Source: a virus. From it: a DNA stretch of 64,000 bases. The DNA lies in the IMG/VR virus record IMGVR_UViG_3300045988_081419, positions 1 through 64,000 of that record; one strand, 5' to 3'. A program made the translations under genes and the position numbers. Below the pieces are notes generated by a model. The model did not search any database and was not told the DNA's origin. It saw only the letters and a list, made by a program, of their open reading frames with translations. Below are positions 6,219-51,042 of this stretch, one piece after another (the stretch's first letter is position 1; the number at the start of each line of letters is the position of its first letter).

Positions 6219-7697
6219 CTATCCCTCCTTTACTTTTCCACCAGTCACATTCAGTTTTAATTCCTTTAAGGTAATAATCTTACTGTCTTTGTCTGCTGTG
6301 ATAATATCACTATCTGGGGAAATGATACGGAATGACTCAACACCTGCAAAAGTCTGTTTTATCTCATGTTCAAGGTCAGACTTCACAAACTTGTCTCCAA
6401 ACACTAAATTGCCATAAGCAAAGAATGTGTTCTCTACATAATCAGTCACATATCCAACAATGGTCTCCTTATCATAGTCATCATCAATAATCAAGTTTGC
6501 AGTAATAGTGATAGGATATTCCTCATGCTTTTTAAACTCATAAGAAGTTCCCGGAATAATTCTTGAGTTGAAGAAGTCATTTACCCTTTTGAGAAGTGCT
6601 TCGTCCATAGTGTAACCCTCTCTCATAAGATAAAAGACATTCATCTTTAACTTCACAACTTCGTCTGAGATTCCTACAGAACTGAGAACCTCATAGAAGT
6701 TGATTCTTAAAAGGTCTGCATAGTCCTGTGCTGTGATTGCTCTGTCTTGAGTTCTGAAAGCCGCAGGAGCATTTTCCCGAATTTCTTCAATGCTCTCTTT
6801 TTCATGTCCTAAGACAGTCGGACCAGAGGGGTTAAATGTTCTGTCCACATAAGCAATGCTTTCGTCAAACTCTGTAATAGTGCTAGGCTTTACATTACCA
6901 ATAGAACCTCCACCTACTCTGTAAGAAGCAATAATACCATTGTCATATACATCTGGAATTTTACCTCTAGCACCACTACCAAACTCAATGTAGCAAGTAT
7001 CAAATTCGTCCACTGTCACTGTGTAGTGTCTGCTCTCTTCGTCACTGTCAATAAAGGTGTCTACTTGAGTCCACACTTCATATCCATCACCCTCGTTAAT
7101 CATCAACTGAATAGAGTTTGTAAGAACTTCCTTGTAGTTCAGCTTAAAGGACTGATAAGGCTGTCCATTAGAAGAACCTAAAAGGTCTTCATTAACTGAT
7201 GTACCTTGAATTACATTGACAGAGTACTTATAAGAGTCATCTTCATTCTTTTCATCACCCAACATTCCTGCCGGAATAATAAGGTCATCTTCTGTCTCAA
7301 AGTAAACAGTAACCATGTCAGTGCTATCTTTAGTGTGTACAACACTTCCTTTAGGAATTACAATGTCTCTGTCCATTTCATTACCAAGCACAAACACTTG
7401 AGGTACAACACTGGCAGTCTGGTTTTTTGCAATATACCTTAACTGTCTTGCAAGTAACACCGCAATTCTTCTATCTTGTGTGGTAGGAAGAAAACAGTCA
7501 TTTGCAATTACATCTGTGTATAAACTACAAATATCCAGACCATTTGCAAGGCACTCTAAAATAACAATACCTGCGTCAGTCTGGCTTGTGTCAGTGTACT
7601 CCGGCATACGCTTTTGTAATTCCTGTATAAGCATAGTTCTATATGCTTCATAATCTCTACTTGTGTAATCAATTCCTTGTGTTGGTTTTCTACTCAT
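6219..7697 (-). CDS. Baseplate J-like protein (gpJ / T4 gp6 family)
   Basis: 492 aa; follows the gp25-like gene with an 8-nt overlap; size and position typical of Baseplate_J. Confidence 0.65.
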   Translation of the reverse strand: MSRKPTQGIDYTSRDYEAYRTMLIQELQKRMPEYTDTSQTDAGIVILECLANGLDICSLYTDVIANDCFLPTTQDRRIAVLLARQLRYIAKNQTASVVPQVFVLGNEMDRDIVIPKGSVVHTKDSTDMVTVYFETEDDLIIPAGMLGDEKNEDDSYKYSVNVIQGTSVNEDLLGSSNGQPYQSFKLNYKEVLTNSIQLMINEGDGYEVWTQVDTFIDSDEESRHYTVTVDEFDTCYIEFGSGARGKIPDVYDNGIIASYRVGGGSIGNVKPSTITEFDESIAYVDRTFNPSGPTVLGHEKESIEEIRENAPAAFRTQDRAITAQDYADLLRINFYEVLSSVGISDEVVKLKMNVFYLMREGYTMDEALLKRVNDFFNSRIIPGTSYEFKKHEEYPITITANLIIDDDYDKETIVGYVTDYVENTFFAYGNLVFGDKFVKSDLEHEIKQTFAGVESFRIISPDSDIITADKDSKIITLKELKLNVTGGKVKEG

Positions 7698-26894: not shown

Positions 26895-27401
26895 TTATTT
26901 TCTTTTATATCCTCTGGTGTATCGTGGACGCTCCCGATATTTCTGTAGTGCTTTGTTATTCTGTTTATTACACACTTCGACTACTTTACCACAGGTCTTC
27001 ACATCAAACATTCCTATATGACACTCTTCTTGTGGTATTCTAAGCATAGCAGACAACCAGATATATGCTTCTTTTCTTGTCATTAACCCAGACTTCCAAA
27101 GAGGGTCAAATGCTTCATGTGCATTATGCTTTGCTCTCCTTAAAATACTATCTGCTAATCTTCCTAAAGGAATTGTCGTGCCGGGGTGACACCCTACATA
27201 AGAATCACACTGAGGAAAGTTACTACACACCCACATCTTTCCGTAGTCTTTGTTGTTATGGTACACATAATGAGAATCTCTCAACACCACAGGAGAACCA
27301 CAATAAGGACACTTTTTAGTGAATCCATAATTGTTGTTGTCATTCAACTTATATTTCTTTTTACTCATACTTATCTCTCCTACATAACGTGGTCTTTCCA
27401 C
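26895..27401 (-). CDS. Zinc-ribbon DNA-binding protein (DUF3268-like); small terminase only by position
   Basis: CPYCGSP...CSNFPQCDSYVGCHPG topoisomerase-type C4 zinc finger; lies just upstream of TerL. Confidence 0.45.
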   Translation of the reverse strand: MERPRYVGEISMSKKKYKLNDNNNYGFTKKCPYCGSPVVLRDSHYVYHNNKDYGKMWVCSNFPQCDSYVGCHPGTTIPLGRLADSILRRAKHNAHEAFDPLWKSGLMTRKEAYIWLSAMLRIPQEECHIGMFDVKTCGKVVEVCNKQNNKALQKYRERPRYTRGYKRK

Positions 27402-28942
27402 TTACACTCAAGAGCAGACTTGTCTGGTCTCATTCTAAAGAATCTAGGGTGTCTCATTTTACCTGTGTCTTTAAAGAGTTCATTGGCTTTCACTTCTACT
27501 ACTTCCCCGACAAAAGTTCTCTTGTACCAGTCTTTACTCTCTGTGATATGCTTATTATGTTTCTCCTCTTCTGGTGTAATTCTCACACACTCACCAGTTT
27601 TCTTATTCACCCATGAGAAAGAAAAGTCTAATCTAACATCATCACTAAATCCTGCACAGTCTCCCACTTCAAGAACTTTACACTCTTTTCCCTCAAGAGT
27701 CATTGTTTCTACTTCAAACTTTTTACCTTTCGGAAGGCTCTTTAATTCTTCGTCAGTGATAACAACACCATATCGGATATTACCAATCATTCTATAGTAG
27801 TGGAATCTGGTAACTGGTGTTAGTCCTCTGTTTAAAAGACTCTTTGCTGAGGTCTGGCTCATTATGTCCACATTCTGTCTTCTGTATTCTACGTCTATCC
27901 AATAATCCCATCTATCTTTCGGGAATTTACCCTCATACACATCAGTAGGTTCAGTGAATCCCATAATAACACATTCTCTGGTTAAAAACTTCTTGATTTT
28001 AAGATAGTTCTTACCTCTCTTGTGTTCATACTTGCCGGACTCTGGCTTTACAATACAACCCTCACCACCAGTAGATACTATAAGTTCATAGTAACCTCTA
28101 GGGGTAAGTCTGTCATTTCCACCATGCAAACACTCATAAATCTCTGAATAGACTTCTTTATTATTCTCTAACTCAAGTAAATACTGGTCTTCATCAAACT
28201 CACCGACTCTCTTAACCATTTCATTATAAGCAGAAACATGAGTCCTTGTGTTTGGGTCTATTAAATACTCTCCGCACACATAGTAAGGTACAAACTCTAT
28301 GTACTTACTGCCGATTTCTTCAATAGCCTGTTTCAGATAGTGCTTTCTCCTTGAGAGTGGCATATTTCTCAAATCAATACCTTTGTACTTGATAATATCA
28401 AAAGCATGGAGAGAGATAAACCCTTTCTCAAGCTGTCGGTCTACTGCTTTATCCCACAAACAGTTAAGTGTACTTGACACTTCTTTAAAAGGCTGACCGT
28501 TAATAAACATTTCACCATCAAGAATAGTTCCTGCAAGTTCTGGACAATCAATATCTCTTATCTGTGGAACACTGTCTGTATTCTCTGCATAGAACCCACT
28601 CTTCTTACTTATTCTCCGGCTGAACACTCTGGTATAACCTATCTTTGTACCATCAAGGTTTTCTTGACTAAAAAATTGCACGATACCTCTTGTACCATCA
28701 AACTTCTCTTCAAGCAAATTTGTGGTGTCTGCCAATTCTAAATCTTGGTCTTCTTCGCCCTCAATTTCTTTCGCTGTCATTGGTTCATAACCTCTAACAC
28801 CTGCAAATTTATATGCTTCTGGACAATCCCATTCTGATAATGGAAACATAGACACTAACTCTTCTGGCTCTCCATTCTCATTGTCAGCATACAGTCTATT
28901 GTCCTGTCCTCTGTACAGCTTTGGAAACATTTCTTGTTTCAA
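27380..28942 (-). CDS. ATP-dependent DNA ligase
   Basis: Nucleotidyltransferase motifs I EEKFDGTRG, III LDGEMF, IV EGCIVK, V YLKIKK. Confidence 0.8.
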   Translation of the reverse strand: MKQEMFPKLYRGQDNRLYADNENGEPEELVSMFPLSEWDCPEAYKFAGVRGYEPMTAKEIEGEEDQDLELADTTNLLEEKFDGTRGIVQFFSQENLDGTKIGYTRVFSRRISKKSGFYAENTDSVPQIRDIDCPELAGTILDGEMFINGQPFKEVSSTLNCLWDKAVDRQLEKGFISLHAFDIIKYKGIDLRNMPLSRRKHYLKQAIEEIGSKYIEFVPYYVCGEYLIDPNTRTHVSAYNEMVKRVGEFDEDQYLLELENNKEVYSEIYECLHGGNDRLTPRGYYELIVSTGGEGCIVKPESGKYEHKRGKNYLKIKKFLTRECVIMGFTEPTDVYEGKFPKDRWDYWIDVEYRRQNVDIMSQTSAKSLLNRGLTPVTRFHYYRMIGNIRYGVVITDEELKSLPKGKKFEVETMTLEGKECKVLEVGDCAGFSDDVRLDFSFSWVNKKTGECVRITPEEEKHNKHITESKDWYKRTFVGEVVEVKANELFKDTGKMRHPRFFRMRPDKSALECKWKDHVM

Positions 28943-32138: not shown

Positions 32139-33203
32139 CTAAGCAACCAACATTCCTCCGGCAATTTTCTCTAATTCTAATCGTCTCTCAAGTGTGAAGT
32201 CCTGTGCAACTTCTGTAATACTATTGATAAGACCCCATCTGCTGTCTGTGTACTTAGTGTTCATTAAATCAATGACCTTGCGTGAACTCTCTTCTGAAAG
32301 TTTAGTTTTATCTTTAATATAAGCCACAAACTCATTTATATCATCTTCATATTCACTTGCAGAACTCCAATGATTATCTCTATGCTGTGCCCTCCTAACC
32401 CACTCTACTGCATTTTCTGTGAGTAAATCTACATTCTGTAAAGACTTCACAAGTCCACTATGAAGTTCATCTACAGTAATACCAATGTGTTTCTGCTCAA
32501 ACAGTGTACCTCCTGCTCTGGCAATAACAAGACCGTTAGTACACACTTGTTTATAGATACCGAACTGTACTATCAAGGTATTTCTACCAACATCAGAACT
32601 GTCAATAAAAATACCCGGAAATAAGTCTTCGCCATCAATAGGCAACATTTCTTTACCCACTAAACGCAAATGAAGTCTTTCTTCATTTAAGAAAGAACCT
32701 TTCACTTTGTAGGTGTTTAAATCTACAGTGTCACTTAACACCTTTAAAATGTCTGGTGTATCACAGATTGCATATCTGTCACTTAAAACACCTCGAATAC
32801 TACCATTGTATTCTCTGATAAGCAGATTCTTGTCATACCCCTCAAGCCATGAGTTCATGTTGTCTTGTGCAAGTTCAATTCTGCCGGAATTGATACATCT
32901 TCTCATATACTCATGTGGAACACCAATCTTATTACACAACTGACCCATAGCGTGTCTTGAAATACTAGGACTTCTCACTTCACCCTCTTTTGTAATATAG
33001 GTAACACCTGCAAGGTCATTTAATCTTAAAATCTCGTTATTAACTTTAGGTACTACAAAATCCTCACATACTGACTGAATATTGTGTGCCTTATCAAGAA
33101 GCATTGTAAATGAAACTCCTCCTGTATCAAGAAGTTCTCTGGTATCTTCCTGCGGAACTGTTTCTACAACCTGTTGTGGCTGTGGTCTCTTTAATAATTT
33201 CAT
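32139..33203 (-). CDS. Hypothetical protein (possibly DUF932-like)
   Basis: 354-aa ORF; family assignment only by vague resemblance. Confidence 0.35.
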   Translation of the reverse strand: MKLLKRPQPQQVVETVPQEDTRELLDTGGVSFTMLLDKAHNIQSVCEDFVVPKVNNEILRLNDLAGVTYITKEGEVRSPSISRHAMGQLCNKIGVPHEYMRRCINSGRIELAQDNMNSWLEGYDKNLLIREYNGSIRGVLSDRYAICDTPDILKVLSDTVDLNTYKVKGSFLNEERLHLRLVGKEMLPIDGEDLFPGIFIDSSDVGRNTLIVQFGIYKQVCTNGLVIARAGGTLFEQKHIGITVDELHSGLVKSLQNVDLLTENAVEWVRRAQHRDNHWSSASEYEDDINEFVAYIKDKTKLSEESSRKVIDLMNTKYTDSRWGLINSITEVAQDFTLERRLELEKIAGGMLVA

Positions 33204-33300: not shown

Positions 33301-33873
33301 CTATCTCTTCTGCTCTAATAGTATTCTCTTAAACACTTTCACTATTTTACCGGGCAAACTGTGTTTCTGCACATATTTCCATGCTTCGGTTTCATCATCA
33401 AACTGAACCCAGTTTACTAAATAATCTCCATGCACTATGTCTTTCATAGGAACACCACATACATAATCTCTCATAAACACTTCACTTTCTGCTCCCGGCA
33501 AGTCAAGGTCTCTGATAGGACTATCCTGTCTTTTAGTAAGTTCTCTCATAAGCTGTTCTGTTGATATAGAAGAAACTTGAAAACTCAAGTCTTCTACCCT
33601 CTCAAAACGATAAGTCTGACCTGTAGCATTATCAAGTCTATCTTTAATGTACAAAGTCATTTCATCACCAAACTGTTCACAAGTATCATGGTCTGCCACA
33701 AAGTCTTCAACTGGTCGCACAAAATTTCCATATTCTGGGTGGCACACATTAAAATAACTAACCATAAAGGTCTTTTCATCTAAAGCACTTTTTGAAATAC
33801 CTGTCACACAATAATATTGACCTTTAAAGTGTCTATACAATCCCGGCTTAACACTAACACTATTCATATTCAT
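33301..33873 (-). CDS. DUF1653-like N-terminal domain protein
   Basis: YRHFKGQYY motif near the N-terminus. Confidence 0.45.
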   Translation of the reverse strand: MNMNSVSVKPGLYRHFKGQYYCVTGISKSALDEKTFMVSYFNVCHPEYGNFVRPVEDFVADHDTCEQFGDEMTLYIKDRLDNATGQTYRFERVEDLSFQVSSISTEQLMRELTKRQDSPIRDLDLPGAESEVFMRDYVCGVPMKDIVHGDYLVNWVQFDDETEAWKYVQKHSLPGKIVKVFKRILLEQKR

Positions 33874-34529
33874 TCCTCCTCTGGTGCATAAGCAAATATA
33901 GTTCCCTCTACTGTGTCATAAGTCTTTAGAGTCTTTACCCAGTTATCTTCAACAAGACTTTCAGCATAGAAATACTGTACCTCAAAAGGTAAATCACTGC
34001 CAAACAATAACACTGAATACACATTGGCTAAAGTCTGGTATGTGACCTCTTGTGATTCAAGTGAACCATTGTAGGCTACACTAAACTGTATTCCTCCATC
34101 TTTCTGATAGATAACCTCTTCAATCGTATTCGGAAATTTAGGACTCACAACCCTATTTAGTATCACCTGAGTTATCATTTTCTGTGACTGATTATTCCCC
34201 TCACCTGCTTCTGCTTGAACACACTTTGCAAGTAATTGTACTTCCTCTTTTGAATAAGAGGACTTACCACTGTTCAATTCTTCTTCCATTCTTATTCTCA
34301 AGCTATACTCTTCTGCATACTTGTCAAAATTAGTTTCTGCCAAAGACCTCACTTCTTCTAGGTTCTCATTGTACGCTATCCTGTTACTATCTATGGCACT
34401 TTGCAAGTCCTCATTGATTTTCTCTAAATCCTCCATGTTCTTCATAGAGAATAAGAGTATCACTAAACACAAAATACCAAAGAAAACAGTGGTACAGAAA
34501 TACACCTTGTCTGCTCTAATTCCTTTCAT
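33870..34529 (-). CDS. Membrane-anchored cell-wall hydrolase, SleB/CwlJ family
   Basis: N-terminal TM helix, coiled coil, then LLAKCVQAEAGEG..QKMITQVILNRV..FPNTIEEVI (Hydrolase_2-type motif). Confidence 0.65.
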   Translation of the reverse strand: MKGIRADKVYFCTTVFFGILCLVILLFSMKNMEDLEKINEDLQSAIDSNRIAYNENLEEVRSLAETNFDKYAEEYSLRIRMEEELNSGKSSYSKEEVQLLAKCVQAEAGEGNNQSQKMITQVILNRVVSPKFPNTIEEVIYQKDGGIQFSVAYNGSLESQEVTYQTLANVYSVLLFGSDLPFEVQYFYAESLVEDNWVKTLKTYDTVEGTIFAYAPEEE

Positions 34530-34592: not shown

Positions 34593-36266
34593 TTATTTTC
34601 TTGTAGGTAAAGTCTCCACAATAGAGTCAATAATCTTTCTCACATCACTTGCCCCACTTCCGATTGAACTATACACATTGATAACGTCCACAACTCTCTC
34701 AGAGAATCCAGTAATAAGATTTTTTCTAAAGTCATCAGTGTTGACAATAGCAAAGCTGTTACCTAAGAGGTTATCCAGATACAGCTTCTTAATGACTTTC
34801 TTCTTAAAGAGGATATTCACCGCTTCGTCTGTGTTATAAGAAGAGTAATAACCTCTTACATACAGACGGAAAGAACTACCACTGGAAGAATAGCAATCTC
34901 CATCAGAAAGAATGATTAAGTTGTCATACTTAGTATTCTGACTTGCAAGTACATTGATTGCAGTGTCCAGATTCGTACAACTACCTACATTGTGGTTCAT
35001 AATAGTCTTCATAATGTCCATAACTGTAGACTTCTTAGAAATGTCAGTCACCTGCTCACATCTATCTGCGAACACATACACATCTGCAATTCCTTTCTTA
35101 AAGCAGATTGCACCTAACATACAAGCTACAATGTCTGCTGTTACATTAGAAGCACCAGATACAGAGTGTCTCATAGAACCAGAACGGTCAATAAGGATAG
35201 CACTGTAACCCTCAATATCCTGCAAGTTGTCAATAGAGAGGTCTAATGCTTCTACTAAAGCGTCCATGACTCTTCTCTTTCCGGCAGAATTACTCAGTTT
35301 AGACACCTCTTGATATGCACTGTAGAATCTGAAAGGTAACAGTCTGGACTTCTGTACCTCTTTCTTATTCGTGAGTTTTGCCACAATACTGTCTACTGCT
35401 TTAGAATCACTAAACATACCTGCTCTGTCAAGTGCTACAAGGTTCTTCACAATAGCCATGACTGTAGAGGTATCAATGGACTTCTTAACATCAGCCTTTG
35501 TGGTCTTACTGTTCTTGTTGTTCACTTTAGACAACTCAGCCTGCACCTGCTTAGTCTCTTCACTGCCACCAAACTCTACATTACCCTCAATGACTCTCTT
35601 ATAGAAGTCTTCACTGACCCTAGAGTTAGCCGGATTAGGTCTTAAAAGTTTGATACAGTCGGCAAGAGATACCTCTCTGTTATCTCCCAGTGCTTTAGAC
35701 AACTGATACTCGTTAAAAGACTCCAACTTCATTTTCAAGGACTTCCTTAACTGCATAGGGAGTGGCTGATTTCTGTGATTGGTCTTATTCTTTCCCCGAC
35801 CTTTTGTAGTCACGTCAAAACCAAACACATTCATCTGCATTGCCATAATATCAGTAATGTCTTTACCTCTTCTAACAATATAGTCTGTGTAGGTCTGCAA
35901 CTTGTTTCTTCCAGTCACTTCATCAATGAAGTTCTCACCCTTAAATCTAGGGTCATTAAAACAAGCTGTAAGCACTGCCAGAGGGTACTGAATCATATTA
36001 TACTCTCTGCCGATTCTGGCTACTTTTAAAGCATACTCTACATCAGACTCCGGGATTTCCGCAATAAGTCTCTGAATCTCTTTAAAGTCTTTCTCTGCTG
36101 TCCTCTTCTCATAATGAGTACCCTCACCAAAGAAAGAACTCAACACTTTACTAAACAGAATTTCAAGGGTGTCTAACTTATGTACTACACTACCCTCATG
36201 GTTCACTGTCTTTCTGGTGTCAGTCTTCATGTTCACTGCTCCACGTTTCTTGTTCATTGTTGCCAT
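34593..36266 (-). CDS. rsr: Ro60 (Rsr) orthologue: TROVE domain + vWA domain
   Basis: NHEGSVVHKLDTLEILFSKVLSSFFGEGTHY (TROVE N-terminal signature) and ILIDRSGSM MIDAS motif. Start at ATG (MATMNKK) 8 nt after AGGAGG. Confidence 0.7.
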   Translation of the reverse strand: MATMNKKRGAVNMKTDTRKTVNHEGSVVHKLDTLEILFSKVLSSFFGEGTHYEKRTAEKDFKEIQRLIAEIPESDVEYALKVARIGREYNMIQYPLAVLTACFNDPRFKGENFIDEVTGRNKLQTYTDYIVRRGKDITDIMAMQMNVFGFDVTTKGRGKNKTNHRNQPLPMQLRKSLKMKLESFNEYQLSKALGDNREVSLADCIKLLRPNPANSRVSEDFYKRVIEGNVEFGGSEETKQVQAELSKVNNKNSKTTKADVKKSIDTSTVMAIVKNLVALDRAGMFSDSKAVDSIVAKLTNKKEVQKSRLLPFRFYSAYQEVSKLSNSAGKRRVMDALVEALDLSIDNLQDIEGYSAILIDRSGSMRHSVSGASNVTADIVACMLGAICFKKGIADVYVFADRCEQVTDISKKSTVMDIMKTIMNHNVGSCTNLDTAINVLASQNTKYDNLIILSDGDCYSSSGSSFRLYVRGYYSSYNTDEAVNILFKKKVIKKLYLDNLLGNSFAIVNTDDFRKNLITGFSERVVDVINVYSSIGSGASDVRKIIDSIVETLPTRK

Positions 36267-36372
36267 AATACATTCCTCCTTTAATTTCATAAATGTGTGG
36301 ATATAATAAAAGACCTCACAATTCGGGAAGATTGTGAAGTCCTTTAATCTTAACAAGTGTAGGAAGAAAAGC

Positions 36373-36493
36373 GTTATTGTATGAAATCGTTTGCTTCATT
36401 AAAAGTGAAGTGCCTTAACCAATTAGGCTATCTGTCAAATTATTTGGCTGACGGAGTGGGAATCGAACCCACATAAATGATGTAAACAATAAC
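36373..36493 (-). ncRNA. Circularly permuted, acceptor-capped tRNA-Lys(UUU)-like RNA
   Basis: Order on the minus strand: leader helix, T arm GUGGG-UUCGAUU-CCCAC, UCCGUCA, 11-nt cap, UGACAGA, UA, D arm GCCU..AGGC, A, CUUCA-CUUUUAA-UGAAG, trailer. Leader GUUAUUGU pairs with trailer ACAAUAAC. Confidence 0.6.
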
Positions 36494-36542
36494 TGCACAA
36501 TCCTACCACAATAATTACTACGTTAAAATTTAGGAGTAAAGC

Positions 36543-36662
36543 CACTTAGCTGTAAATCTCTTAAAGAGTGTTTTCAAGACACTTGCGTATTCCAGTTTCG
36601 CCAAATTTCCAATCGGAAATTATAAGATTTGAACCTATATATTTTATGATGTAAGCTAAATG
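36543..36662 (-). ncRNA. Circularly permuted, acceptor-capped tRNA-Ser(UGA)-like RNA
   Basis: T arm AUAGG-UUCAAAU-CUUAU, AAUUUCC-GAUU-GGAAAUU capped acceptor, UG, D arm GCG..CGC, A, AGUGU-CUUGAAA-ACACU. Leader CAUUUAGCU pairs with trailer AGCUAAGUG. Confidence 0.6.
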
Positions 36663-36721
36663 TACACAACCCAAATTATTATATTCCTTTTAAAGTGGAG
36701 TAAAACGATAAAGTCTGTTTG

Positions 36722-36794
36722 TTATCACAACAGGAGTCGAACCTGCAATCTTTTTCTTGGAATGAAAACGTCTTAACCATTTGACTATATGATG
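36722..36794 (-). tRNA. tRNA-Gly(UCC)
   Basis: Acceptor CAUCAUA/UGUGAUA (C1-A72 mismatch), anticodon arm UUUUC-AUUCCAA-GAAAA, T arm GCAGG-UUCGACU-CCUGU; no encoded CCA. Confidence 0.75.
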
Positions 36795-36860
36795 TAAACT
36801 TTATCTACACAACCACTATAGTTACTCTATCATAAGGAAGAAAAACATAAAAGACTTCTT

Positions 36861-36933
36861 TTCATATTGTCGGAATCGAACCAACTACACTTATTTCCCA
36901 AAAATAATGCTCTACCTATTGAGCTAAACATGA
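36861..36933 (-). tRNA. tRNA-Pro(UGG)
   Basis: Acceptor UCAUGUU/AAUAUGA, D arm GCUC-AAUAGGUA-GAGC, anticodon arm UUAUU-UUUGGGA-AAUAA, T arm GUUGG-UUCGAUU-CCGAC. Confidence 0.85.
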
Positions 36934-37021
36934 TGTAATCTTTTATTACACAATCCTTATTTTCTTTAACACTGCTCTCAGCGTGTTTACACTATATCAC
37001 ACTTTCTAAAAGCTGTCAAAA

Positions 37022-37094
37022 CTGCCCTTACTGGATTTGAACCAGTGAAATGCAGGAGTCAAAGTCCTGTGCCTTACCACTTGGCGAAAGGGCA
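37022..37094 (-). tRNA. tRNA-Gln(UUG)
   Basis: Acceptor UGCCCUU/AAGGGCA 7/7, anticodon arm CAGGA-CUUUGAC-UCCUG, T arm ACUGG-UUCAAAU-CCAGU. Confidence 0.8.
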
Positions 37095-37282
37095 ATGAAG
37101 CAGACACTTTATCACGCATTTACCTTACCACTAATGACACTACTGATGTATCACAATGACCTCAGTATGTTATCACCAATGGAACAGTCGAGTGGAAGGG
37201 TAGTCTGCACACCCAATCGGCTTATCCACACATTCAAGTGTGAGAGTGTATGGTGTGGAGAAAGGATTCAAGCCACACCAAG

Positions 37283-37367
37283 TCGGTGAGGTAGGAATTG
37301 AACCTACGTTGTTTCTAATGTCACAGATTTACAGTCTGCTGTCTTCGCCTACTGGACACACTCACCG
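37283..37367 (-). tRNA. tRNA-Tyr(GUA), long-variable-region type
   Basis: Acceptor CGGUGAG/CUCACCG 7/7, anticodon arm GCAGA-CUGUAAA-UCUGU, T arm GUAGG-UUCAAUU-CCUAC. D region and the 15-nt variable region are irregular. Confidence 0.65.
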
Positions 37368-37594
37368 ATTTTAAGTCACTGTGATAGGAAAGTCCGGCTG
37401 TTATACTTCGTTCACACTTCATTGGATAGACTAAAGTGATTTCGGCAACTATCTCCTTGTCTGCTACTCATACATATCCGTCTCGTCTATCAAGACCTTT
37501 CGCTTTGGCAATCAACAAGTTCGTGACTATCAGCATTTTTATTGTAAGTCCTCCACTACTGGAATACCTTACTTAGTCGGCTGACAAGACTAAA

Positions 37595-37667
37595 CTGACT
37601 CAGCAGGACTCGAACCTGCGACTTTCTGATTAACAGTCAGACGTTCTACCAACTGAACTATGAGTCA
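37595..37667 (-). tRNA. tRNA-Asn(GUU)
   Basis: Acceptor UGACUCA/UGAGUCA, D arm GUUC-AGUUGGUA-GAAC, anticodon arm UCUGA-CUGUUAA-UCAGA, T arm GCAGG-UUCGAGU-CCUGC. Confidence 0.9.
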
Positions 37668-37762
37668 TCATGCACACTCATGTAGTTTCCGTTTTCCTAT
37701 TGCTAGCATTGGTCTCTGCACAACTGAGTGTGTGATATAGGAATTTCCTAGGATTCCTATAA

Positions 37763-37838
37763 CTGAGTAGGAAGGTATCGAACCTTCTTTACAACACTGT
37801 TGCAACACAGGTGTTTTCTTCCACAACAAAGCTACTCA
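37763..37838 (-). ncRNA. Aberrant tRNA-like element (canonical acceptor and T arm, degenerate D/anticodon core)
   Basis: Acceptor UGAGUAG/CUACUCA 7/7 and T arm GAAGG-UUCGAUA-CCUUC. The core has no 4-bp D stem, and only AACAC/GUGUU closes a 13-nt loop CUGUGUUGCAACA. Confidence 0.5.
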
Positions 37839-38120
37839 TTAAAGGTAAGTGTCTGTAGGCTTTCCACCTACTTGCAGGTTTGGTAGTTATCGTCTAACTC
37901 ACAAGACCTCTTTTACCCAGTGACTTTTCTGGCAACCTTACGGATTTGTTTCCACTGACTATTGCTACACAGTCTTAACCACATGGGAATATGGGCTGTA
38001 TAACTCATTTCACTTACCAATAGTGGTAAAGGGTACTATCACCTCGCCCTGTTATTATCGGGTGAATTTAGTAGGTACACGCATTACTGCATATTGTGTA
38101 TGACCTCTCTTACCACTAAA

Positions 38121-38208
38121 CGGAGTGTATAGGACTTGAACCTACGCTACGTCTTAACGTACTAGAAGATTAGCAATCTTCCCTCTTCACCAACTTGAGT
38201 AACACTCC
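38121..38208 (-). tRNA. tRNA-Ser(GCU)
   Basis: Acceptor GGAGUGU/ACACUCC, 3-bp D stem, anticodon arm GAAGA-UUGCUAA-UCUUC, variable arm UACGU-UAAG-ACGUA, T arm GUAGG-UUCAAGU-CCUAU. Confidence 0.9.
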
Positions 38209-38407
38209 ATGCTCCACCTTGTTATAGTCGTGGTGGACACCCTGACTTGCAAGTAAAGTTTCTTTCGCTAGGTGCTTCGCATGACTCCACTCGACTTCAT
38301 CACCCTGTAAGTTTTCATTTCTATATCCACCTTTCGATTGACTGCTTACCCAGTGGTGGAATAGGGGAGTTGTTTGTCTTCTCTTGAAGACGATTCACAG
38401 TATAGCA

Positions 38408-38761
38408 TTAAACGGAAGTTTCGTCAAGCAGTCCGTTTTCATCTAACACCTGCAAAATTGCATTGCTCATTTTCCTCCACACTTTCATATACCATGTGGC
38501 AAATAGCTCCTCAGTGTCATCATCAACAGCAAGACCACTCTCATTACAAAAAGCATGGAATATCTCATGTGCTACAATCTCCCTTGCTCTCTGCTCCGAC
38601 TCAGACACTAAAACACAATCGTCCATAGAGTCTAACACATTTATCTTTTTGGAATAAATTCTACACTCTCCCATATTCTCCTCTGAAAGACCAATTTCTT
38701 TTCTCTCACCTATGTTCACTAAATACTCAGTGTCTAATACTGAAACTTTTGACTGCTTCAT
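38408..38761 (-). CDS. Small HExxH metallopeptidase-like protein
   Basis: AHEIFHAF motif. Start at the ATG (MKQSKVS) preceded by GGAGGG. Confidence 0.45.
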   Translation of the reverse strand: MKQSKVSVLDTEYLVNIGERKEIGLSEENMGECRIYSKKINVLDSMDDCVLVSESEQRAREIVAHEIFHAFCNESGLAVDDDTEELFATWYMKVWRKMSNAILQVLDENGLLDETSV

Positions 38762-48975: not shown

Positions 48976-51042
48976 TTATAATTCAGCGTCCACGATATTA
49001 TCTTCATCTTCTTCTTTCTTGCCTAAGTCACCAAAAATCTTTTCAAGGATTCCTCCTCTTTGTGGGTTGGTAACTTGTGTTGTCATTTCTTGTGTTCCGT
49101 CACTTCTGAGAATTTTAGTCTGTCTTAACACCTCAGTATTTCCATTTTCATACATCTGTTTAAGCTGACCTAAATATCTCATGGACTGGTCCATCATAGA
49201 AGAAACATTCGGGTCTGGGAGTCCTCCCTCAAGAATTTCAAACATCATGGTTCTCTGTAAACGTCCTAAAGAGAAGTCTACAATACCTTGCATAGCTTGA
49301 ATAATGTCTCCCATGTCTCTTGTGTCGAACTTATCAAAAATCTTGTTGTAAGCACAAGCAAATCCGGCTTTATATTCTGGACATTTCTGAGCCGCATAAC
49401 AAGTATCACAAGCCATTTTAGGGAACTTCTTAGAGTACATTTTCTTAGGCTTCAACACTTGTCTTTGACCTTTAAGGAAATGACCCTTTTCATCACGAAT
49501 GGGTGTGATACCCTCTTCTGCAAAGATTTCATCATCTAAAGAGTCAATCTCCGGGGCAGTTCCATCTTCACTCTCCGGCAGGTACTTTGAAAGGACATTA
49601 AGGACTTCCATTTCAGTAACGTCCTCTGTCTCATACTCTTCATCAGTAATGTAGGTTTCACGTTCCTTTACTACTCTGTCAAAATTAGTGCCGAGGAGAA
49701 GAAGTTTATCACTCTCACCTAAAAGGTTCTCCTTGTAGAACTGAATAAGGTCTGCTACCCTTTCTTCATCAGTCTGGACAATTCTATTTATCCAAAGGTC
49801 GTGTAACTCTTTAATGAGTTCCGGGGTATAAACTCTGTTGATATAGTCTACATACTCTGGTTTATCCCAGTTCATAAAACAAGTCATATCAATAACACAG
49901 TTAAGAGCCTGTACTTTGTCCTCTTGAGACACATTAAACATTTCAGCGTATTTCTGCCACTCTGCGTCTTGTGTTTCTGGGGAGTCTAACCATTCTGGTG
50001 TTGGGTACTGGATTGAGTCAAGGTCTGCTTCTGTTCTCTTTTCTCCTTTAGGTCTTAACCAGTACATTCTTGCCCGACACTGCTTCTGAATGTATTTTTC
50101 GGCTTCAATAAAGGCAAACACATTGACCTTAATCATTTCAGTGTTATCCTCTTCTAACAGCTTATCTTCATCAAAGCCTAAAGAAACAAGTTTCGGGAGC
50201 ATATTTCCTTTCCACTTGTCTTTCTTTAGTCTTGTCATCTTCTTGCCAGTCCAATAGTTGACTTCTCCATATTGAAGACCAACAAGCCATGTAGTTGAGT
50301 CTACTGTGTAGAATGGGAGGGAGGTTAAAAGAGAAGTCTTTGTCATAGCCATTCCATGTACAACACTGTTGTACTTCTCTGCTATTCTAAGCCTTTCTCT
50401 TACAATCTTTTCTCCATTATTTGAATCAAACTCCCAAGGCATACCAATGTAGGGATAACGCTGTGCATATTGTTCCCAAGTTCTTGCTGTTTCACCCTCA
50501 TGGTAGATAAAACACACTGGAATACCAGTCTCTAGCATGAAAGGCTCAAAGTATTTCTCATTCCACTCTTGAACAATTTCCGGTTGAACATGACCCTCAA
50601 TGTCAAGGTTGGCAATAGCAAAGATAATGTCTTTGTGTCTTTTAGCCCACCTTAAATATCTTTGAATCTGTTCTTCCCACTGTTCCACTGTGTACTCTGC
50701 ATACTTAGAATCATTTCTGTATGTATAAGCACCAGAGTCTACAAAGAACTTTATACCAAGACCACTAAACTTATCAACGTCCATGTGTTTATTCTGTACA
50801 TACTGATAGGACACAAGGAAGTTTCTAATACCCAGTCCATACAGAATGTCAAAGTTTCTTTCATCTTCAACACCAGAGTACAACATATGAAAGTCCTGCT
50901 CTCTATCAACAATATCCCAGAGTGTCTTAGGTTTCTCATTCTCAGAATGGTCTTTCTGGTTCGTAATTTGACTAAATTTAGACTTTCCAATGCTTTCACT
51001 TGTATTTGTACTCTTAGCCTTTTTCAGCTTTAATTTAGGCAT
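48976..51042 (-). CDS. dpdA: DpdA-like DNA (7-deazaguanine) transglycosylase with long Cys-rich C-terminal extension
   Basis: TGT/DpdA-type core FDILYGLGIRNFLVSYQY...KFFVDSGAYTY; adjacent to folE-queC-queE-queD. 688 aa, which appears roughly twice the length I recall for DpdA proteins (from memory, not checked); CDTCYAAQKCPEYKAGFAC cluster. Confidence 0.65.
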   Translation of the reverse strand: MPKLKLKKAKSTNTSESIGKSKFSQITNQKDHSENEKPKTLWDIVDREQDFHMLYSGVEDERNFDILYGLGIRNFLVSYQYVQNKHMDVDKFSGLGIKFFVDSGAYTYRNDSKYAEYTVEQWEEQIQRYLRWAKRHKDIIFAIANLDIEGHVQPEIVQEWNEKYFEPFMLETGIPVCFIYHEGETARTWEQYAQRYPYIGMPWEFDSNNGEKIVRERLRIAEKYNSVVHGMAMTKTSLLTSLPFYTVDSTTWLVGLQYGEVNYWTGKKMTRLKKDKWKGNMLPKLVSLGFDEDKLLEEDNTEMIKVNVFAFIEAEKYIQKQCRARMYWLRPKGEKRTEADLDSIQYPTPEWLDSPETQDAEWQKYAEMFNVSQEDKVQALNCVIDMTCFMNWDKPEYVDYINRVYTPELIKELHDLWINRIVQTDEERVADLIQFYKENLLGESDKLLLLGTNFDRVVKERETYITDEEYETEDVTEMEVLNVLSKYLPESEDGTAPEIDSLDDEIFAEEGITPIRDEKGHFLKGQRQVLKPKKMYSKKFPKMACDTCYAAQKCPEYKAGFACAYNKIFDKFDTRDMGDIIQAMQGIVDFSLGRLQRTMMFEILEGGLPDPNVSSMMDQSMRYLGQLKQMYENGNTEVLRQTKILRSDGTQEMTTQVTNPQRGGILEKIFGDLGKKEEDEDNIVDAEL

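What the first reader, a model, noticed from the sequence alone, without database searches (positions are those of the whole stretch)
34593..36266. Phage-encoded Ro60 (TROVE + vWA) orthologue placed directly downstream of the RNA-gene cluster
The protein has the Ro60 N-terminal signature (NHEGSVVHKLD...FFGEGTHY) and a C-terminal MIDAS (IDRSGSM). In bacteria, Rsr works with Y RNAs that are usually encoded next to it and often with RNA-repair genes. Here the gene is preceded on the same strand by tRNAs, two capped tRNA mimics and long structured spacers. Its RNA partners are therefore very likely among these. The cluster suggests phage manipulation of RNA quality control or tRNA surveillance.
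Basis: partly seen in the sequence, partly recalled or inferred. Interest (0 to 1): 0.7.

Follow-up and report, generated by a model that had tools for sequence, protein, structure and literature searches.

The report
Phage Ro60 with tRNA-shaped Y RNAs
A human-gut phage encodes a genuine Ro60/Rsr RNA-binding ring protein directly downstream of an array of four small RNAs (two tRNA mimics, two real tRNAs) on one conserved stalk; phage Ro60 with upstream Y RNAs is already known, but this RNA design is a new variant.

Summary
ORF 34593-36266 (minus strand) is a divergent Ro60/Rsr protein. TROVE and Ro60-type vWA pass Pfam's cut-offs, the MIDAS residues are invariant in relatives, and the 13 best PDB fold matches are all Ro60/Rsr/TROVE.

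Chen et al. 2014 found Y RNAs beside Ro60 in 22 phages. Hu et al. 2025 showed that Thermus phage phiLo Ro60 binds two upstream Y-like RNAs and host PNPase.

The RNA design is what is new. Between a strong promoter (36991-37019) and a terminator hairpin (36307-36346) lie four tandem units. All share a two-helix stalk with conserved internal loops (UUGUGYA / GYUUUYCU, then UUAC). Covariation support is strong (96% paired against 42-54% in controls). The stalk occurs only in this Rsr clade.

Two units carry capped, circularly permuted tRNA mimics that weakly match Rfam YrlA. Unlike YrlA, they keep a closed anticodon arm and lack the GNCGAA motif. Two units carry ordinary tRNAs (Pro, Gly).

I infer that the stalk is the Rsr-binding site. 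No binding was tested. No RNA-repair gene was found among the ORFs tested.

The parts
34593..36266 (-). rsr/Ro60 coding sequence (557 aa): TROVE HEAT-repeat ring plus C-terminal vWA domain with MIDAS (D360-x-S362-x-S364, T431, D455)
36275..36280 (-). Shine-Dalgarno AGGAGG, 8 nt before the ATG
   Evidence: read directly from the sequence
36300..36346 (-). Intrinsic-terminator-like hairpin (paired 36307-36346, -18.9 kcal/mol, z -5.2) followed by UUUUAUUAU. It lies between the RNA array and rsr. Relatives have a hairpin plus U-run at the same place with different sequences.
36357..36508 (-). Unit A, Y RNA-like. The stalk is: outer helix, loop UUGUGCA/GCUUUUCU, 8-bp helix GUUAUUGU/ACAAUAAC, loop UUAC, 3-bp AUC/GAU. 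It carries a permuted tRNA mimic: T arm, 7-bp capped acceptor, D arm, and an anticodon-like arm with loop CUUUUAA.
36527..36677 (-). Unit B, second Y RNA-like capped tRNA mimic on the same stalk (8-bp helix CAUUUAGC/GCUAAGUG; anticodon-like loop CUUGAAA)
36691..36820 (-). tRNA-Gly(UCC) (36721-36794), normal topology, seated on the same stalk (8-bp helix GAUAAAGU/ACUUUAUC). It has a C1.A72 mismatch and no encoded CCA.
36831..36961 (-). tRNA-Pro(UGG) (36861-36933), normal topology, seated on the same stalk (8-bp helix AUAAAAGA/UCUUUUAU)
36991..37019 (-). Sigma-70-type promoter with extended -10 (TTGACA-17-TGATATAGT, 11 of 12 matches), immediately upstream of the first stalk-bearing unit. Equivalent promoters precede the array in relatives.
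37021..38209 (-). Upstream RNA block without the stalk module: tRNA-Gln, Tyr, Asn and Ser separated by conserved spacers. S4 is 37096-37281, S3 is 37368-37594, S2 is 37668-38119. They have predicted structure and no Rfam match, and may be further non-coding RNAs.
38399..38427 (-). Second promoter-like site (TTGACG-17-TGCTATACT, 10 of 12 matches) ahead of the upstream RNA block

Best explanation
The gene encodes a phage Ro60/Rsr ring protein, and its RNA partners are the small RNAs encoded directly upstream.

Proposed transcription: a strong promoter at 36991-37019 drives four tandem units, and a hairpin terminator ends most transcripts just before rsr. Rsr would then be made from read-through, at a lower level than the RNAs.

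Proposed RNA design: each unit folds into a long stalk made by its own 5' and 3' ends. The order is outer helix, conserved asymmetric loop UUGUGYA/GYUUUYCU, 8-bp helix, UUAC loop, short AUC/GAU helix. The stalk carries a variable apical module.

Proposed function: by analogy with all studied Y RNAs, the constant stalk docks on the outer surface of the Rsr ring. The apical module (a capped tRNA look-alike in units A and B, a real tRNA in the Pro and Gly units) presents a tRNA shape to a second factor. That factor could be host PNPase, as in the Deinococcus, Salmonella and phiLo complexes, or a tRNA-binding enzyme or nuclease. The result would be to redirect or blunt host RNA turnover or tRNA surveillance during infection.

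Shown here: the protein family and fold, the RNA secondary structures and their covariation, the restriction of the stalk to this Rsr clade, and the conserved promoter-array-terminator-rsr layout.

Inferred: that Rsr binds the stalk, that the terminator is leaky, and the identity of the effector.
For: Protein. TROVE and vWA_Ro60 score above Pfam's gathering scores. A profile search of the PDB hits phiLo Ro60, Xenopus and human Ro60 and D. radiodurans Rsr. The AF2 model's top 13 Foldseek hits are all Ro60/Rsr/TROVE, aligned over 504-575 columns, with target-normalised TM 0.50-0.71. The MIDAS residues are invariant.

RNA. The Rfam YrlA model aligns to the T arm, capped acceptor and D arm of unit A (26.5 bits). 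It aligns end to end in the orthologous positions of L002 (32.4 bits) and L004 (28.7 bits). The stalk's two helices are 96.2% paired over 28 distinct units, against 42-54% in the slid controls. 15 of 16 pairs change on both sides, and the covariation score is 0.92 against 0.21 or less. The four arms of the mimics are 94.7% paired against 34-45%, with a score of 0.78 against 0.19 or less. The unconstrained minimum-energy fold of unit A gives the same architecture. The universal tRNA tertiary-contact nucleotides are present.

Association. In IMG/VR, all 10 contigs with a complete module encode this Rsr, and 70 single-motif hits have neither. Strict modules occur in 33 clade loci, against one chance hit in 1.5 Mb of other loci that include about 140 distant Rsr loci. 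The promoter, array, terminator, rsr order is kept down to 52% Rsr identity, with different terminator sequences.

Precedent. Y RNAs lie within 4 kb on the same strand as Ro60 in 254 bacteria and 22 phages (PMC4201824). phiLo Ro60 binds two upstream Y-like RNAs and host PNPase (PMC12135203).
Against: There is no binding or expression data.

The stalk lacks the GNCGAAN0-1G / CGAA motif that marks the Ro60-binding site of characterised bacterial and phiLo Y RNAs (PMC4201824, PMC12135203; alignment).

The YrlA hits are far below Rfam's gathering score of 69 bits.

The co-occurrence of stalk and Rsr is confounded by common descent. All carriers belong to one phage lineage, and no rsr-less relative was found.

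Two stalk-bearing units are ordinary-looking tRNAs, so the stalk could serve tRNA processing instead.

Helix 2 of the stalk and two arms of the mimics were located by maximising pairing, which inflates the paired percentages somewhat.

The protein model is of moderate quality (pLDDT 64, pTM 0.58), so ring closure is not directly shown.
Confidence: 0.68

Rival explanations
1. The stalks are precursor-processing helices unrelated to Rsr. Leader-trailer pairing would mark each tRNA or tRNA-like unit for endonucleolytic release, for example by RNase III or a phage nuclease. Rsr would act separately as a general quality-control factor for misfolded RNAs. It would sit next to the RNA genes only because this is the phage's RNA-gene region.
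For: Two of the four stalk-bearing units are standard tRNAs scoring 58 bits. The stalk lacks the known CGAA Ro-binding motif. Several distant Rsr loci also lie downstream of ordinary tRNA arrays, with no YrlA at Rfam's threshold.
Against: The four tRNAs further upstream in the same cluster (Gln, Tyr, Asn, Ser) have no stalk, so the stalk is not needed for tRNA maturation in this phage. RNase III-type processing helices do not need invariant internal-loop sequences, yet UUGU-A, UUAC-AUC and the --U---CU trailer are invariant or nearly so across 28 distinct units. Capped mimics cannot be matured into tRNAs, yet they are conserved with compensatory changes. Some relatives have stalks with almost no apical module (L019/L020 unit of 86 nt), so nothing useful would be released by processing.
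Confidence: 0.17
2. The stalk-bearing units are anticodon-loop decoys or spare parts aimed at host tRNA-targeting defences or tRNA-modifying enzymes. Rsr would serve mainly to stabilise or deliver them. On this reading the anticodon loop, not PNPase tethering, is the working end.
For: Unlike canonical YrlA, units A and B keep a closed 5-bp/7-nt anticodon-like arm with U33 and R37 (contrast with 10.1101/312249). The triplet differs between close relatives: UUU, GUU, GCU, UGU, UGA, ACG in unit A. In the tRNA slot, 6 of 18 differences between near-identical units fall in the 3-nt anticodon (odds ratio 35, Fisher p 8e-7). Many of the triplets are GUN, the class recognised by TGT enzymes, and the phage encodes a 688-aa TGT-like protein.
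Against: In unit A the triplet columns are more variable than average but are not the most variable columns. The close pairs are few and not independent. No anticodon nuclease, target or defence context was identified. Anticodon shifts could also reflect ordinary retuning of decoding tRNAs.
Confidence: 0.1
3. The protein is a TROVE/vWA family member with a role other than Ro60-like RNA handling, and the adjacent RNAs are irrelevant to it.
For: It falls far below the NCBIfam Rsr equivalog cut-off (42 bits against 900). Identity to any characterised Ro60 is only 16-19% in the structural alignments.
Against: The full-length fold matches are exclusively Ro60/Rsr proteins. The Ro60-specific vWA model passes its threshold. 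The locus organisation matches characterised Ro60 loci (PMC4201824, PMC12135203).
Confidence: 0.05

Closest known systems
Thermus phage phiLo Ro60 with Yrl1 and Yrl2 (Hu et al. 2025, PMC12135203; PDB 9KOP, 9L5Y)
   Same: A phage-encoded Ro60 ring with a vWA domain. Two Y-like RNA genes lie directly upstream on the same strand. It is the best sequence and structure match in the PDB.
   Different: The phiLo Yrls are stem-bulge-stem RNAs identified through a CGAA motif. Here the stalk has different conserved loops (UUGUGYA/GYUUUYCU, UUAC), the apical modules are full tRNA look-alikes, and two real tRNAs share the stalk. Identity between the proteins is about 19% in the structural alignment. phiLo binding to its RNAs and to PNPase is experimental. 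Nothing was tested here.
Bacterial and mycobacteriophage Rsr with YrlA (Chen et al. 2014, PMC4201824; Wang et al. 2018, bioRxiv 10.1101/312249; Rfam RF02553)
   Same: The RNA lies within a few hundred nt of rsr on the same strand. The tRNA-like module has the order T arm, loop-capped acceptor stem, D arm, with the tRNA tertiary-contact nucleotides including an A15:U48 Levitt pair. A long stem formed by the 5' and 3' ends is the presumed protein-binding part.
   Different: In canonical YrlA the terminal stem takes the place of the anticodon stem and there is no anticodon loop. Here a closed anticodon-like arm is kept. The stalk joins at the variable-arm position in units A and B, or between the D and anticodon arms in L019/L115 units. 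The GNCGAAN0-1G motif is absent from the stalk. Rfam scores are 26-32 bits against a threshold of 69.
Deinococcus radiodurans Rsr, Yrn1 and PNPase (RYPER), as summarised in PMC4201824 and PMC12135203
   Same: It is the model for the mechanism: a Y RNA stem on the Ro ring, with an apical module that tethers an effector.
   Different: Yrn1 has only partial tRNA-like features. No PNPase link was examined here, and no PNPase gene was found among the window ORFs tested.
Listeria phage CKA15 (P100-like) Rsr-like gene downstream of three highly transcribed non-coding regions (PMC12282133)
   Same: A Firmicutes phage with an Rsr-like gene within 2 kb downstream of abundant same-strand non-coding transcripts, which the authors proposed to be Y RNAs.
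   Different: That Rsr was detected only by HHpred, and the RNAs were not characterised structurally. I made no sequence comparison with it.

Membership tests
Ro60/Rsr (TROVE + vWA) proteins | TROVE domain detected above the curated threshold | tested here: met
   PF05731 E 4.7e-13, 49.5 bits against a cut-off of 23. The precomputed Pfam domains of 120 homologues agree.
Ro60/Rsr (TROVE + vWA) proteins | C-terminal Ro60-type von Willebrand A domain with a MIDAS motif (DxSxS, T, D) | tested here: met
   PF25045 scores 32.6 bits against 27.7. D360, S362, S364, T431 and D455 are invariant in 15 homologues. This is the high-confidence part of the AF2 model.
Ro60/Rsr (TROVE + vWA) proteins | Overall Ro60 fold (HEAT-repeat ring closed by the vWA domain) | tested here: met
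   Foldseek top 13 PDB hits are all Ro60/Rsr/TROVE, E 2e-12 to 9e-9, aligned over 504-575 columns. Caveat: model pLDDT is 64 and pTM 0.58, so closure of the ring is not itself shown.
Ro60/Rsr (TROVE + vWA) proteins | Equivalog of bacterial Rsr by the NCBIfam NF041674 cut-off | tested here: not met
   42 bits against a cut-off of 900. It is a divergent member, not a close orthologue of characterised bacterial Rsr.
Ro60/Rsr (TROVE + vWA) proteins | Binds Y RNA on the outer surface and single-stranded RNA ends in the central cavity | not testable with these tools
   Needs biochemistry or a structure of the complex.
YrlA Y RNAs (Rfam RF02553) | Score at or above Rfam's gathering threshold (69 bits) | tested here: not met
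   26.5 bits (partial, window), 32.4 bits (L002) and 28.7 bits (L004), the last two full-length.
YrlA Y RNAs (Rfam RF02553) | Encoded near the Ro60 gene on the same strand (within 4 kb; PMC4201824) | tested here: met
   Unit A ends 91 nt and unit B 261 nt upstream of the rsr ATG, on the same strand.
YrlA Y RNAs (Rfam RF02553) | tRNA-like module in the order T arm, loop-capped acceptor stem, D arm, with tRNA tertiary-contact nucleotides | tested here: met
   Parsed in 26 orthologues. Covariation: 94.7% paired against 34-45% in the controls. Reproduced by the minimum-energy fold.
YrlA Y RNAs (Rfam RF02553) | The terminal stem replaces the anticodon stem, with no anticodon loop (10.1101/312249) | tested here: not met
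   Units A and B have a closed 5-bp/7-nt anticodon-like arm, 100% paired, with all 5 pairs covarying. The stalk joins between this arm and the T arm.
YrlA Y RNAs (Rfam RF02553) | GNCGAAN0-1G motif in the terminal stem, the presumed Rsr-binding site (PMC4201824) | tested here: not met
   Absent from all 28 distinct stalks. The GGCGAAA in unit B lies in the D arm and does not fit the motif's spacing.
tRNA (RF00005), for the Pro and Gly units | Cloverleaf scoring above threshold, with a free acceptor end | tested here: met
   58.3 and 58.4 bits against 29, also called by ARAGORN. Whether they are released from the stalk and aminoacylated cannot be tested here.

The most novel reading that the evidence does not exclude
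This clade of abundant human-gut phages may have evolved a modular Y RNA system. One Rsr-docking stalk with a new recognition motif would be fused interchangeably to real tRNAs, to two differently permuted capped tRNA mimics, to lone arms, or to nothing. The anticodon triplet would be swapped freely between close relatives. If so, Rsr would display a changing panel of anticodon loops to host tRNA-targeting nucleases or modification enzymes, acting as a decoy or escort system. Alternatively it would chaperone the phage's own tRNAs. Either way the Ro60/Y RNA system would be tied directly to tRNA biology.
Probability: 0.2. Interest if true: 0.8.

Novelty: new variant of a known kind. Interest (0 to 1): 0.55.

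Why it matters
What the tRNA-like domain of bacterial Y RNAs is for remains an open question. The YrlA structure paper calls its interaction partner an unknown factor.

This lineage offers natural variants that bear on that question. The same stalk carries true tRNAs, full cloverleaf mimics that keep their anticodon loops, and nearly empty versions. The lineage is common enough to appear in dozens of human-gut assemblies.

If Rsr binds the stalk, three things follow. A second, non-CGAA type of Ro60 recognition site would be defined. A compact test system would exist: one protein and four RNAs within 2.4 kb. And the idea that Ro60 particles engage tRNA-handling machinery would gain support.

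If Rsr does not bind the stalk, the stalk is still a well-supported, undescribed conserved RNA element flanking phage tRNAs.

Tried and rejected
1. Reading the TTGTGYA-N8-TTACATCAT leader as a promoter. Rejected: the implied -10 would fall inside the tRNA body. The leader also pairs with a trailer, with compensatory changes.

2. Natural-knockout test. I looked for relatives that lack rsr through the downstream hydrolase and DUF932 genes. Only contigs already known to carry rsr came back, so there is no answer.

3. Canonical YrlA in distant Rsr loci, as a reference. None of 18 loci reached Rfam's threshold. A sub-threshold score here is therefore not unusual for metagenomic or phage Rsr loci.

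4. GNCGAA in unit B. The conserved GGCGAAA lies in the D arm, not in the terminal stem, and misses the motif's spacing. Not counted.

5. Exceptional hypervariability of the unit A anticodon triplet. Only partly borne out: entropies are 0.62 and 0.99 against a mean of 0.27, but the cap loop and linker columns vary more. The enrichment is clear only in the tRNA slot.

6. The MAFFT alignment of full unit A (A3) shifted the anticodon arm of L007 and L008 by two columns. It was not used for counting. Fixed-length trimmed alignments (A2, A4) were used instead.

7. RtcB, RNA ligase or PNPase in the window. None was found among about 30 ORFs scanned. The ligase at 27380-28942 is of the ATP-dependent DNA-ligase type. 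Not every ORF was scanned, and the window covers only part of the roughly 86-kb genome.

8. The longer TTG start at 36356. Rejected because it would run through the terminator hairpin.

9. Two Wolin-lab reviews (PMC10870794, PMC6047535) were not available.
Full report
**Observation.** The minus-strand ORF from ATG 36266 to the stop at 34593 encodes 557 aa and is preceded by AGGAGG at 36275-36280.

- Pfam finds TROVE (E 4.7e-13, 49.5 bits against a cut-off of 23) and the Ro60-specific vWA domain PF25045 (32.6 bits against 27.7).
- PHROGs places it in phrog_850, 'RNA-binding protein' (E 1e-31).
- A profile of 15 homologues hits Thermus phage phiLo Ro60 (4e-18), Xenopus Ro60 (1.8e-10), human RO60 (5e-8) and D. 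radiodurans Rsr (2.5e-7) among PDB sequences.
- The AlphaFold model is of moderate quality (pLDDT 64.4, pTM 0.58). Even so, its 13 best Foldseek matches in the PDB are all Ro60/Rsr/TROVE structures, aligned over 504-575 columns. Isolated vWA domains follow only at E above 1e-3.
- MIDAS residues D360, S362, S364, T431 and D455 are invariant in the family alignment.
- The protein is divergent: it scores 42 bits against the 900-bit cut-off of NCBI's bacterial Rsr equivalog model.

**Genome context.** The window is a tailed phage with tape measure, portal, large terminase, baseplate and tail proteins. It also carries an anaerobic ribonucleotide reductase, ThyX, a UvrD-type helicase, an ATP-dependent DNA ligase and a 688-aa TGT-like protein.

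Close relatives (Rsr 66-99% identical) are contigs of about 81-88 kb, several of them named human-gut metagenome assemblies. The nearest cellular Rsr homologues, at 25-29% identity, are mostly gut or rumen Clostridia. Strong Shine-Dalgarno sites, extended -10 promoters and a SleB-like cell-wall hydrolase next to rsr fit a Firmicutes host. The host assignment is inference.

**What lies upstream.** ARAGORN and Rfam find six tRNAs on the same strand. A permissive Rfam scan adds two things directly upstream of rsr:

- a borderline tRNA hit;
- a partial YrlA (RF02553) hit at 36412-36473, covering a T arm, a loop-capped acceptor-like hairpin and a D arm.

In relatives L002 and L004 the YrlA model aligns end to end at the orthologous place, at 32.4 and 28.7 bits against a gathering score of 69.

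Comparing the upstream regions of relatives showed a repeated design. Four tandem units in the window share it: 36831-36961, 36691-36820, 36527-36677 and 36357-36508.

- 5' side: outer-helix strand, UUGUGYA, 8 nt, UUAC, AUC.
- 3' side: GAU, a linker, the complement of the 8 nt, GYUUUYCU, outer-helix strand.

The 8-nt blocks differ between units and always pair: AUAAAAGA, GAUAAAGU, CAUUUAGC, GUUAUUGU.

**Support for the stalk.** Across the window and 27 loci of the clade I found 69 units, 49 of them distinct, using about 14 different 8-nt helices. All pair 8 of 8, although the search required only 7 of 8 or better.

I built a trimmed alignment of 28 distinct stalks, with each apical part replaced by a fixed linker. 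On it:

- the two helices are 96.2% paired, against 42-54% when the partners are slid;
- 15 of 16 pairs show changes on both sides;
- the covariation score is 0.92, against 0.21 or less;
- no shuffle out of 500 reaches the observed values.

The inner helix was selected for pairing, so its 100% is inflated. The outer helix was used only to break ties and is still 92% paired. The internal-loop sequences are invariant or nearly so.

**The apical modules.** Units A and B carry, in order:

- a T arm with loop UUCRAnY;
- a 7-bp acceptor-like stem closed by a loop;
- two nucleotides starting with U;
- a D arm with A14, A15 and GG;
- one A;
- a 5-bp stem with a 7-nt loop that has U33 and R37.

A U precedes the T stem and can form the Levitt pair with A15. 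On 19 distinct sequences these four arms are 94.7% paired against 34-45% in the slid controls, and every helix has compensatory changes. The positions of two arms were chosen by maximising pairing within short windows. RNAfold without constraints returns the same architecture for unit A (z -2.9) and a cloverleaf on the stalk for the Pro unit (z -3.0).

These are circularly permuted, capped tRNA mimics, as in YrlA. They differ from YrlA in one respect. In canonical YrlA the terminal stem stands in for the anticodon stem and there is no anticodon loop (10.1101/312249). Here the anticodon-like arm is closed and the stalk joins between it and the T arm, at the variable-arm position.

Some relatives use another break point: anticodon arm, T arm, capped acceptor, D arm (L019 unit at 1176, L115 unit at 7605). 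Others carry only a D arm or almost nothing on the stalk (L019 units at 392 and 1321).

The other two window units carry ordinary tRNA-Pro(UGG) and tRNA-Gly(UCC). Their acceptor stems continue the AUC/GAU helix.

**Specificity and layout.**

- The leader pattern occurs on 80 listed IMG/VR stretches. The 10 with two or more copies and a pairing trailer are exactly the 10 that encode this Rsr. The 70 single hits have neither.
- A strict unit finder on all 258 fetched loci finds modules in 33 loci of the clade (Rsr 52% identity or more). It finds one obvious chance hit in 1.5 Mb of other sequence, which includes about 140 distant Rsr loci. L175, which the script labelled 'other', is a further contig of the same clade.
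- In the window the leader occurs only in the four units next to rsr.
- A strong extended -10 promoter (TTGACA-17-TGATATAGT) lies just before the first unit.
- A stable hairpin (-18.9 kcal/mol, z -5.2) followed by a U-run lies between unit A and the rsr ribosome-binding site.
- Relatives down to 52% Rsr identity keep promoter, array, hairpin and rsr in that order, with different hairpin sequences.

I infer that the RNAs form their own highly expressed unit and that rsr is translated from read-through transcripts.

**Comparison with what is known.** Chen et al. 2014 (PMC4201824) reported YrlA-like RNAs within 4 kb, on the same strand as Ro60, in 254 bacterial species and 22 phages. They noted a GNCGAAN0-1G motif at the presumed binding site.

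Hu et al. 2025 (PMC12135203) solved phiLo Ro60. They showed that it binds two Y-like RNAs encoded directly upstream of its gene, forms a complex with host PNPase and attenuates that enzyme's activity.

A Listeria phage study (PMC12282133) proposed the same kind of arrangement from transcriptomics.

Five things are not described in these sources:

- the stalk motif, which lacks GNCGAA;
- the retained anticodon arm;
- the alternative permutation points;
- the sharing of one stalk by mimics and genuine tRNAs;
- the four-unit array.

I class it as a new variant of a known kind. By Rfam's criteria the RNAs are not members of RF02553. They work like YrlA in layout and tRNA mimicry.

**Mechanism.** The best-supported reading (confidence about 0.68) is that the stalk docks on Rsr and the tRNA-shaped module engages a second factor, as in the Deinococcus, Salmonella and phiLo particles.

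The main rival (about 0.17) is that the stalks are processing helices for tRNA-like precursors, unrelated to Rsr. Four points argue against it:

- four tRNAs in the same cluster lack stalks;
- the loop sequences are invariant;
- capped mimics cannot mature into tRNAs;
- near-empty stalks exist.

A more speculative reading (about 0.10 as the main function) is that the anticodon loops are the working ends. In the tRNA slot, near-identical units differ preferentially in the anticodon: 6 of 18 differences fall in 3 of about 130 positions, Fisher p 8e-7 (GUU/GUC, UCA/GCA, GUA/UCC). The unit A triplet also varies among close relatives, though not exceptionally.

No RNA-repair or PNPase gene was found among the ORFs scanned.

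**Limits.**

- There are no expression or binding data.
- The association of stalk and Rsr is confounded by shared ancestry.
- No rsr-less relative was found.
- The structure model is moderate.
- Parts of the pairing statistics are inflated by the way the elements were located.

Noticed in passing
window 37368-37594 (-), spacer S3 between tRNA-Asn and tRNA-Tyr: A conserved non-coding stretch, 88% identical in L002/L006/L012 and 78% in L008. RNAalifold predicts a multi-helix structure of 54 pairs, 13 with compensatory changes. It has no Rfam match and no stalk module. It is probably an undescribed structured RNA.
   Followed up: partly
window 37096-37281 (-) S4 and 37668-38119 (-) S2: Two further long spacers between tRNAs fold more stably than mononucleotide-shuffled controls (z -4.3 and -3.6). 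Both are conserved in relatives. S4 has 37 predicted pairs, 3 of them compensatory. S2 contains a T-arm-like GAAGGUUCGAUACCUUC near 37790 and a lone UUGUGCA at 37723. Neither has an Rfam match.
   Followed up: partly
window 36721-36794 and the orthologous slot in L002-L017, L150: The stalk-embedded tRNA in this slot keeps the same acceptor stem (CAUCAUA/UnUGAUA, with a C1.A72 mismatch and A73) while its anticodon differs between relatives: UCC, GUU, GUC, AAC, GCA, UCA, GUA. Near-identical pairs differ mainly in the anticodon (Fisher p 8e-7). UCA would read the UGA stop codon.
   Followed up: partly
window 48976-51042 (-): A 688-aa protein matches PHROG 887 'queuine tRNA-ribosyltransferase' (E 3e-74) and has no Pfam hit. 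Many anticodon-like loops in the stalk-bearing units are GUN, the class that TGT enzymes recognise. Whether this protein acts on DNA, as DpdA-type enzymes do, or on these RNAs was not examined.
   Followed up: no
L019/L020 units at about 1176/3173 and L115 unit at 7605: In relatives with 62% Rsr identity the capped tRNA mimic is permuted at a different point: anticodon arm, T arm, capped acceptor, D arm. The same clade therefore holds two permutation types plus unpermuted tRNAs on one stalk.
   Followed up: partly
loci L027, L039, L042, L053, L075 (distant Rsr, 25-29% identity): Several distant Rsr genes in metagenomic contigs also lie downstream of large same-strand tRNA arrays (up to about 20 tRNAs), with no YrlA hit at Rfam's threshold. 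Rsr next to tRNA arrays may be a wider pattern in phage-like contigs.
   Followed up: no
window 33870-34529, 33301-33873, 32139-33203 (-): The genes immediately downstream of rsr are a SleB-like cell-wall hydrolase (Hydrolase_2), a DUF1653 protein and a DUF932 protein. None has an evident RNA function.
   Followed up: yes
window 36290 (-): An in-frame ATG lies 8 codons upstream of the proposed start, and one JGI gene call uses it (565 aa). In L002 and L007 an in-frame ATG lies 5 codons upstream. The AGGAGG site and the invariant MATMN N-terminus favour the start at 36266.
   Followed up: yes
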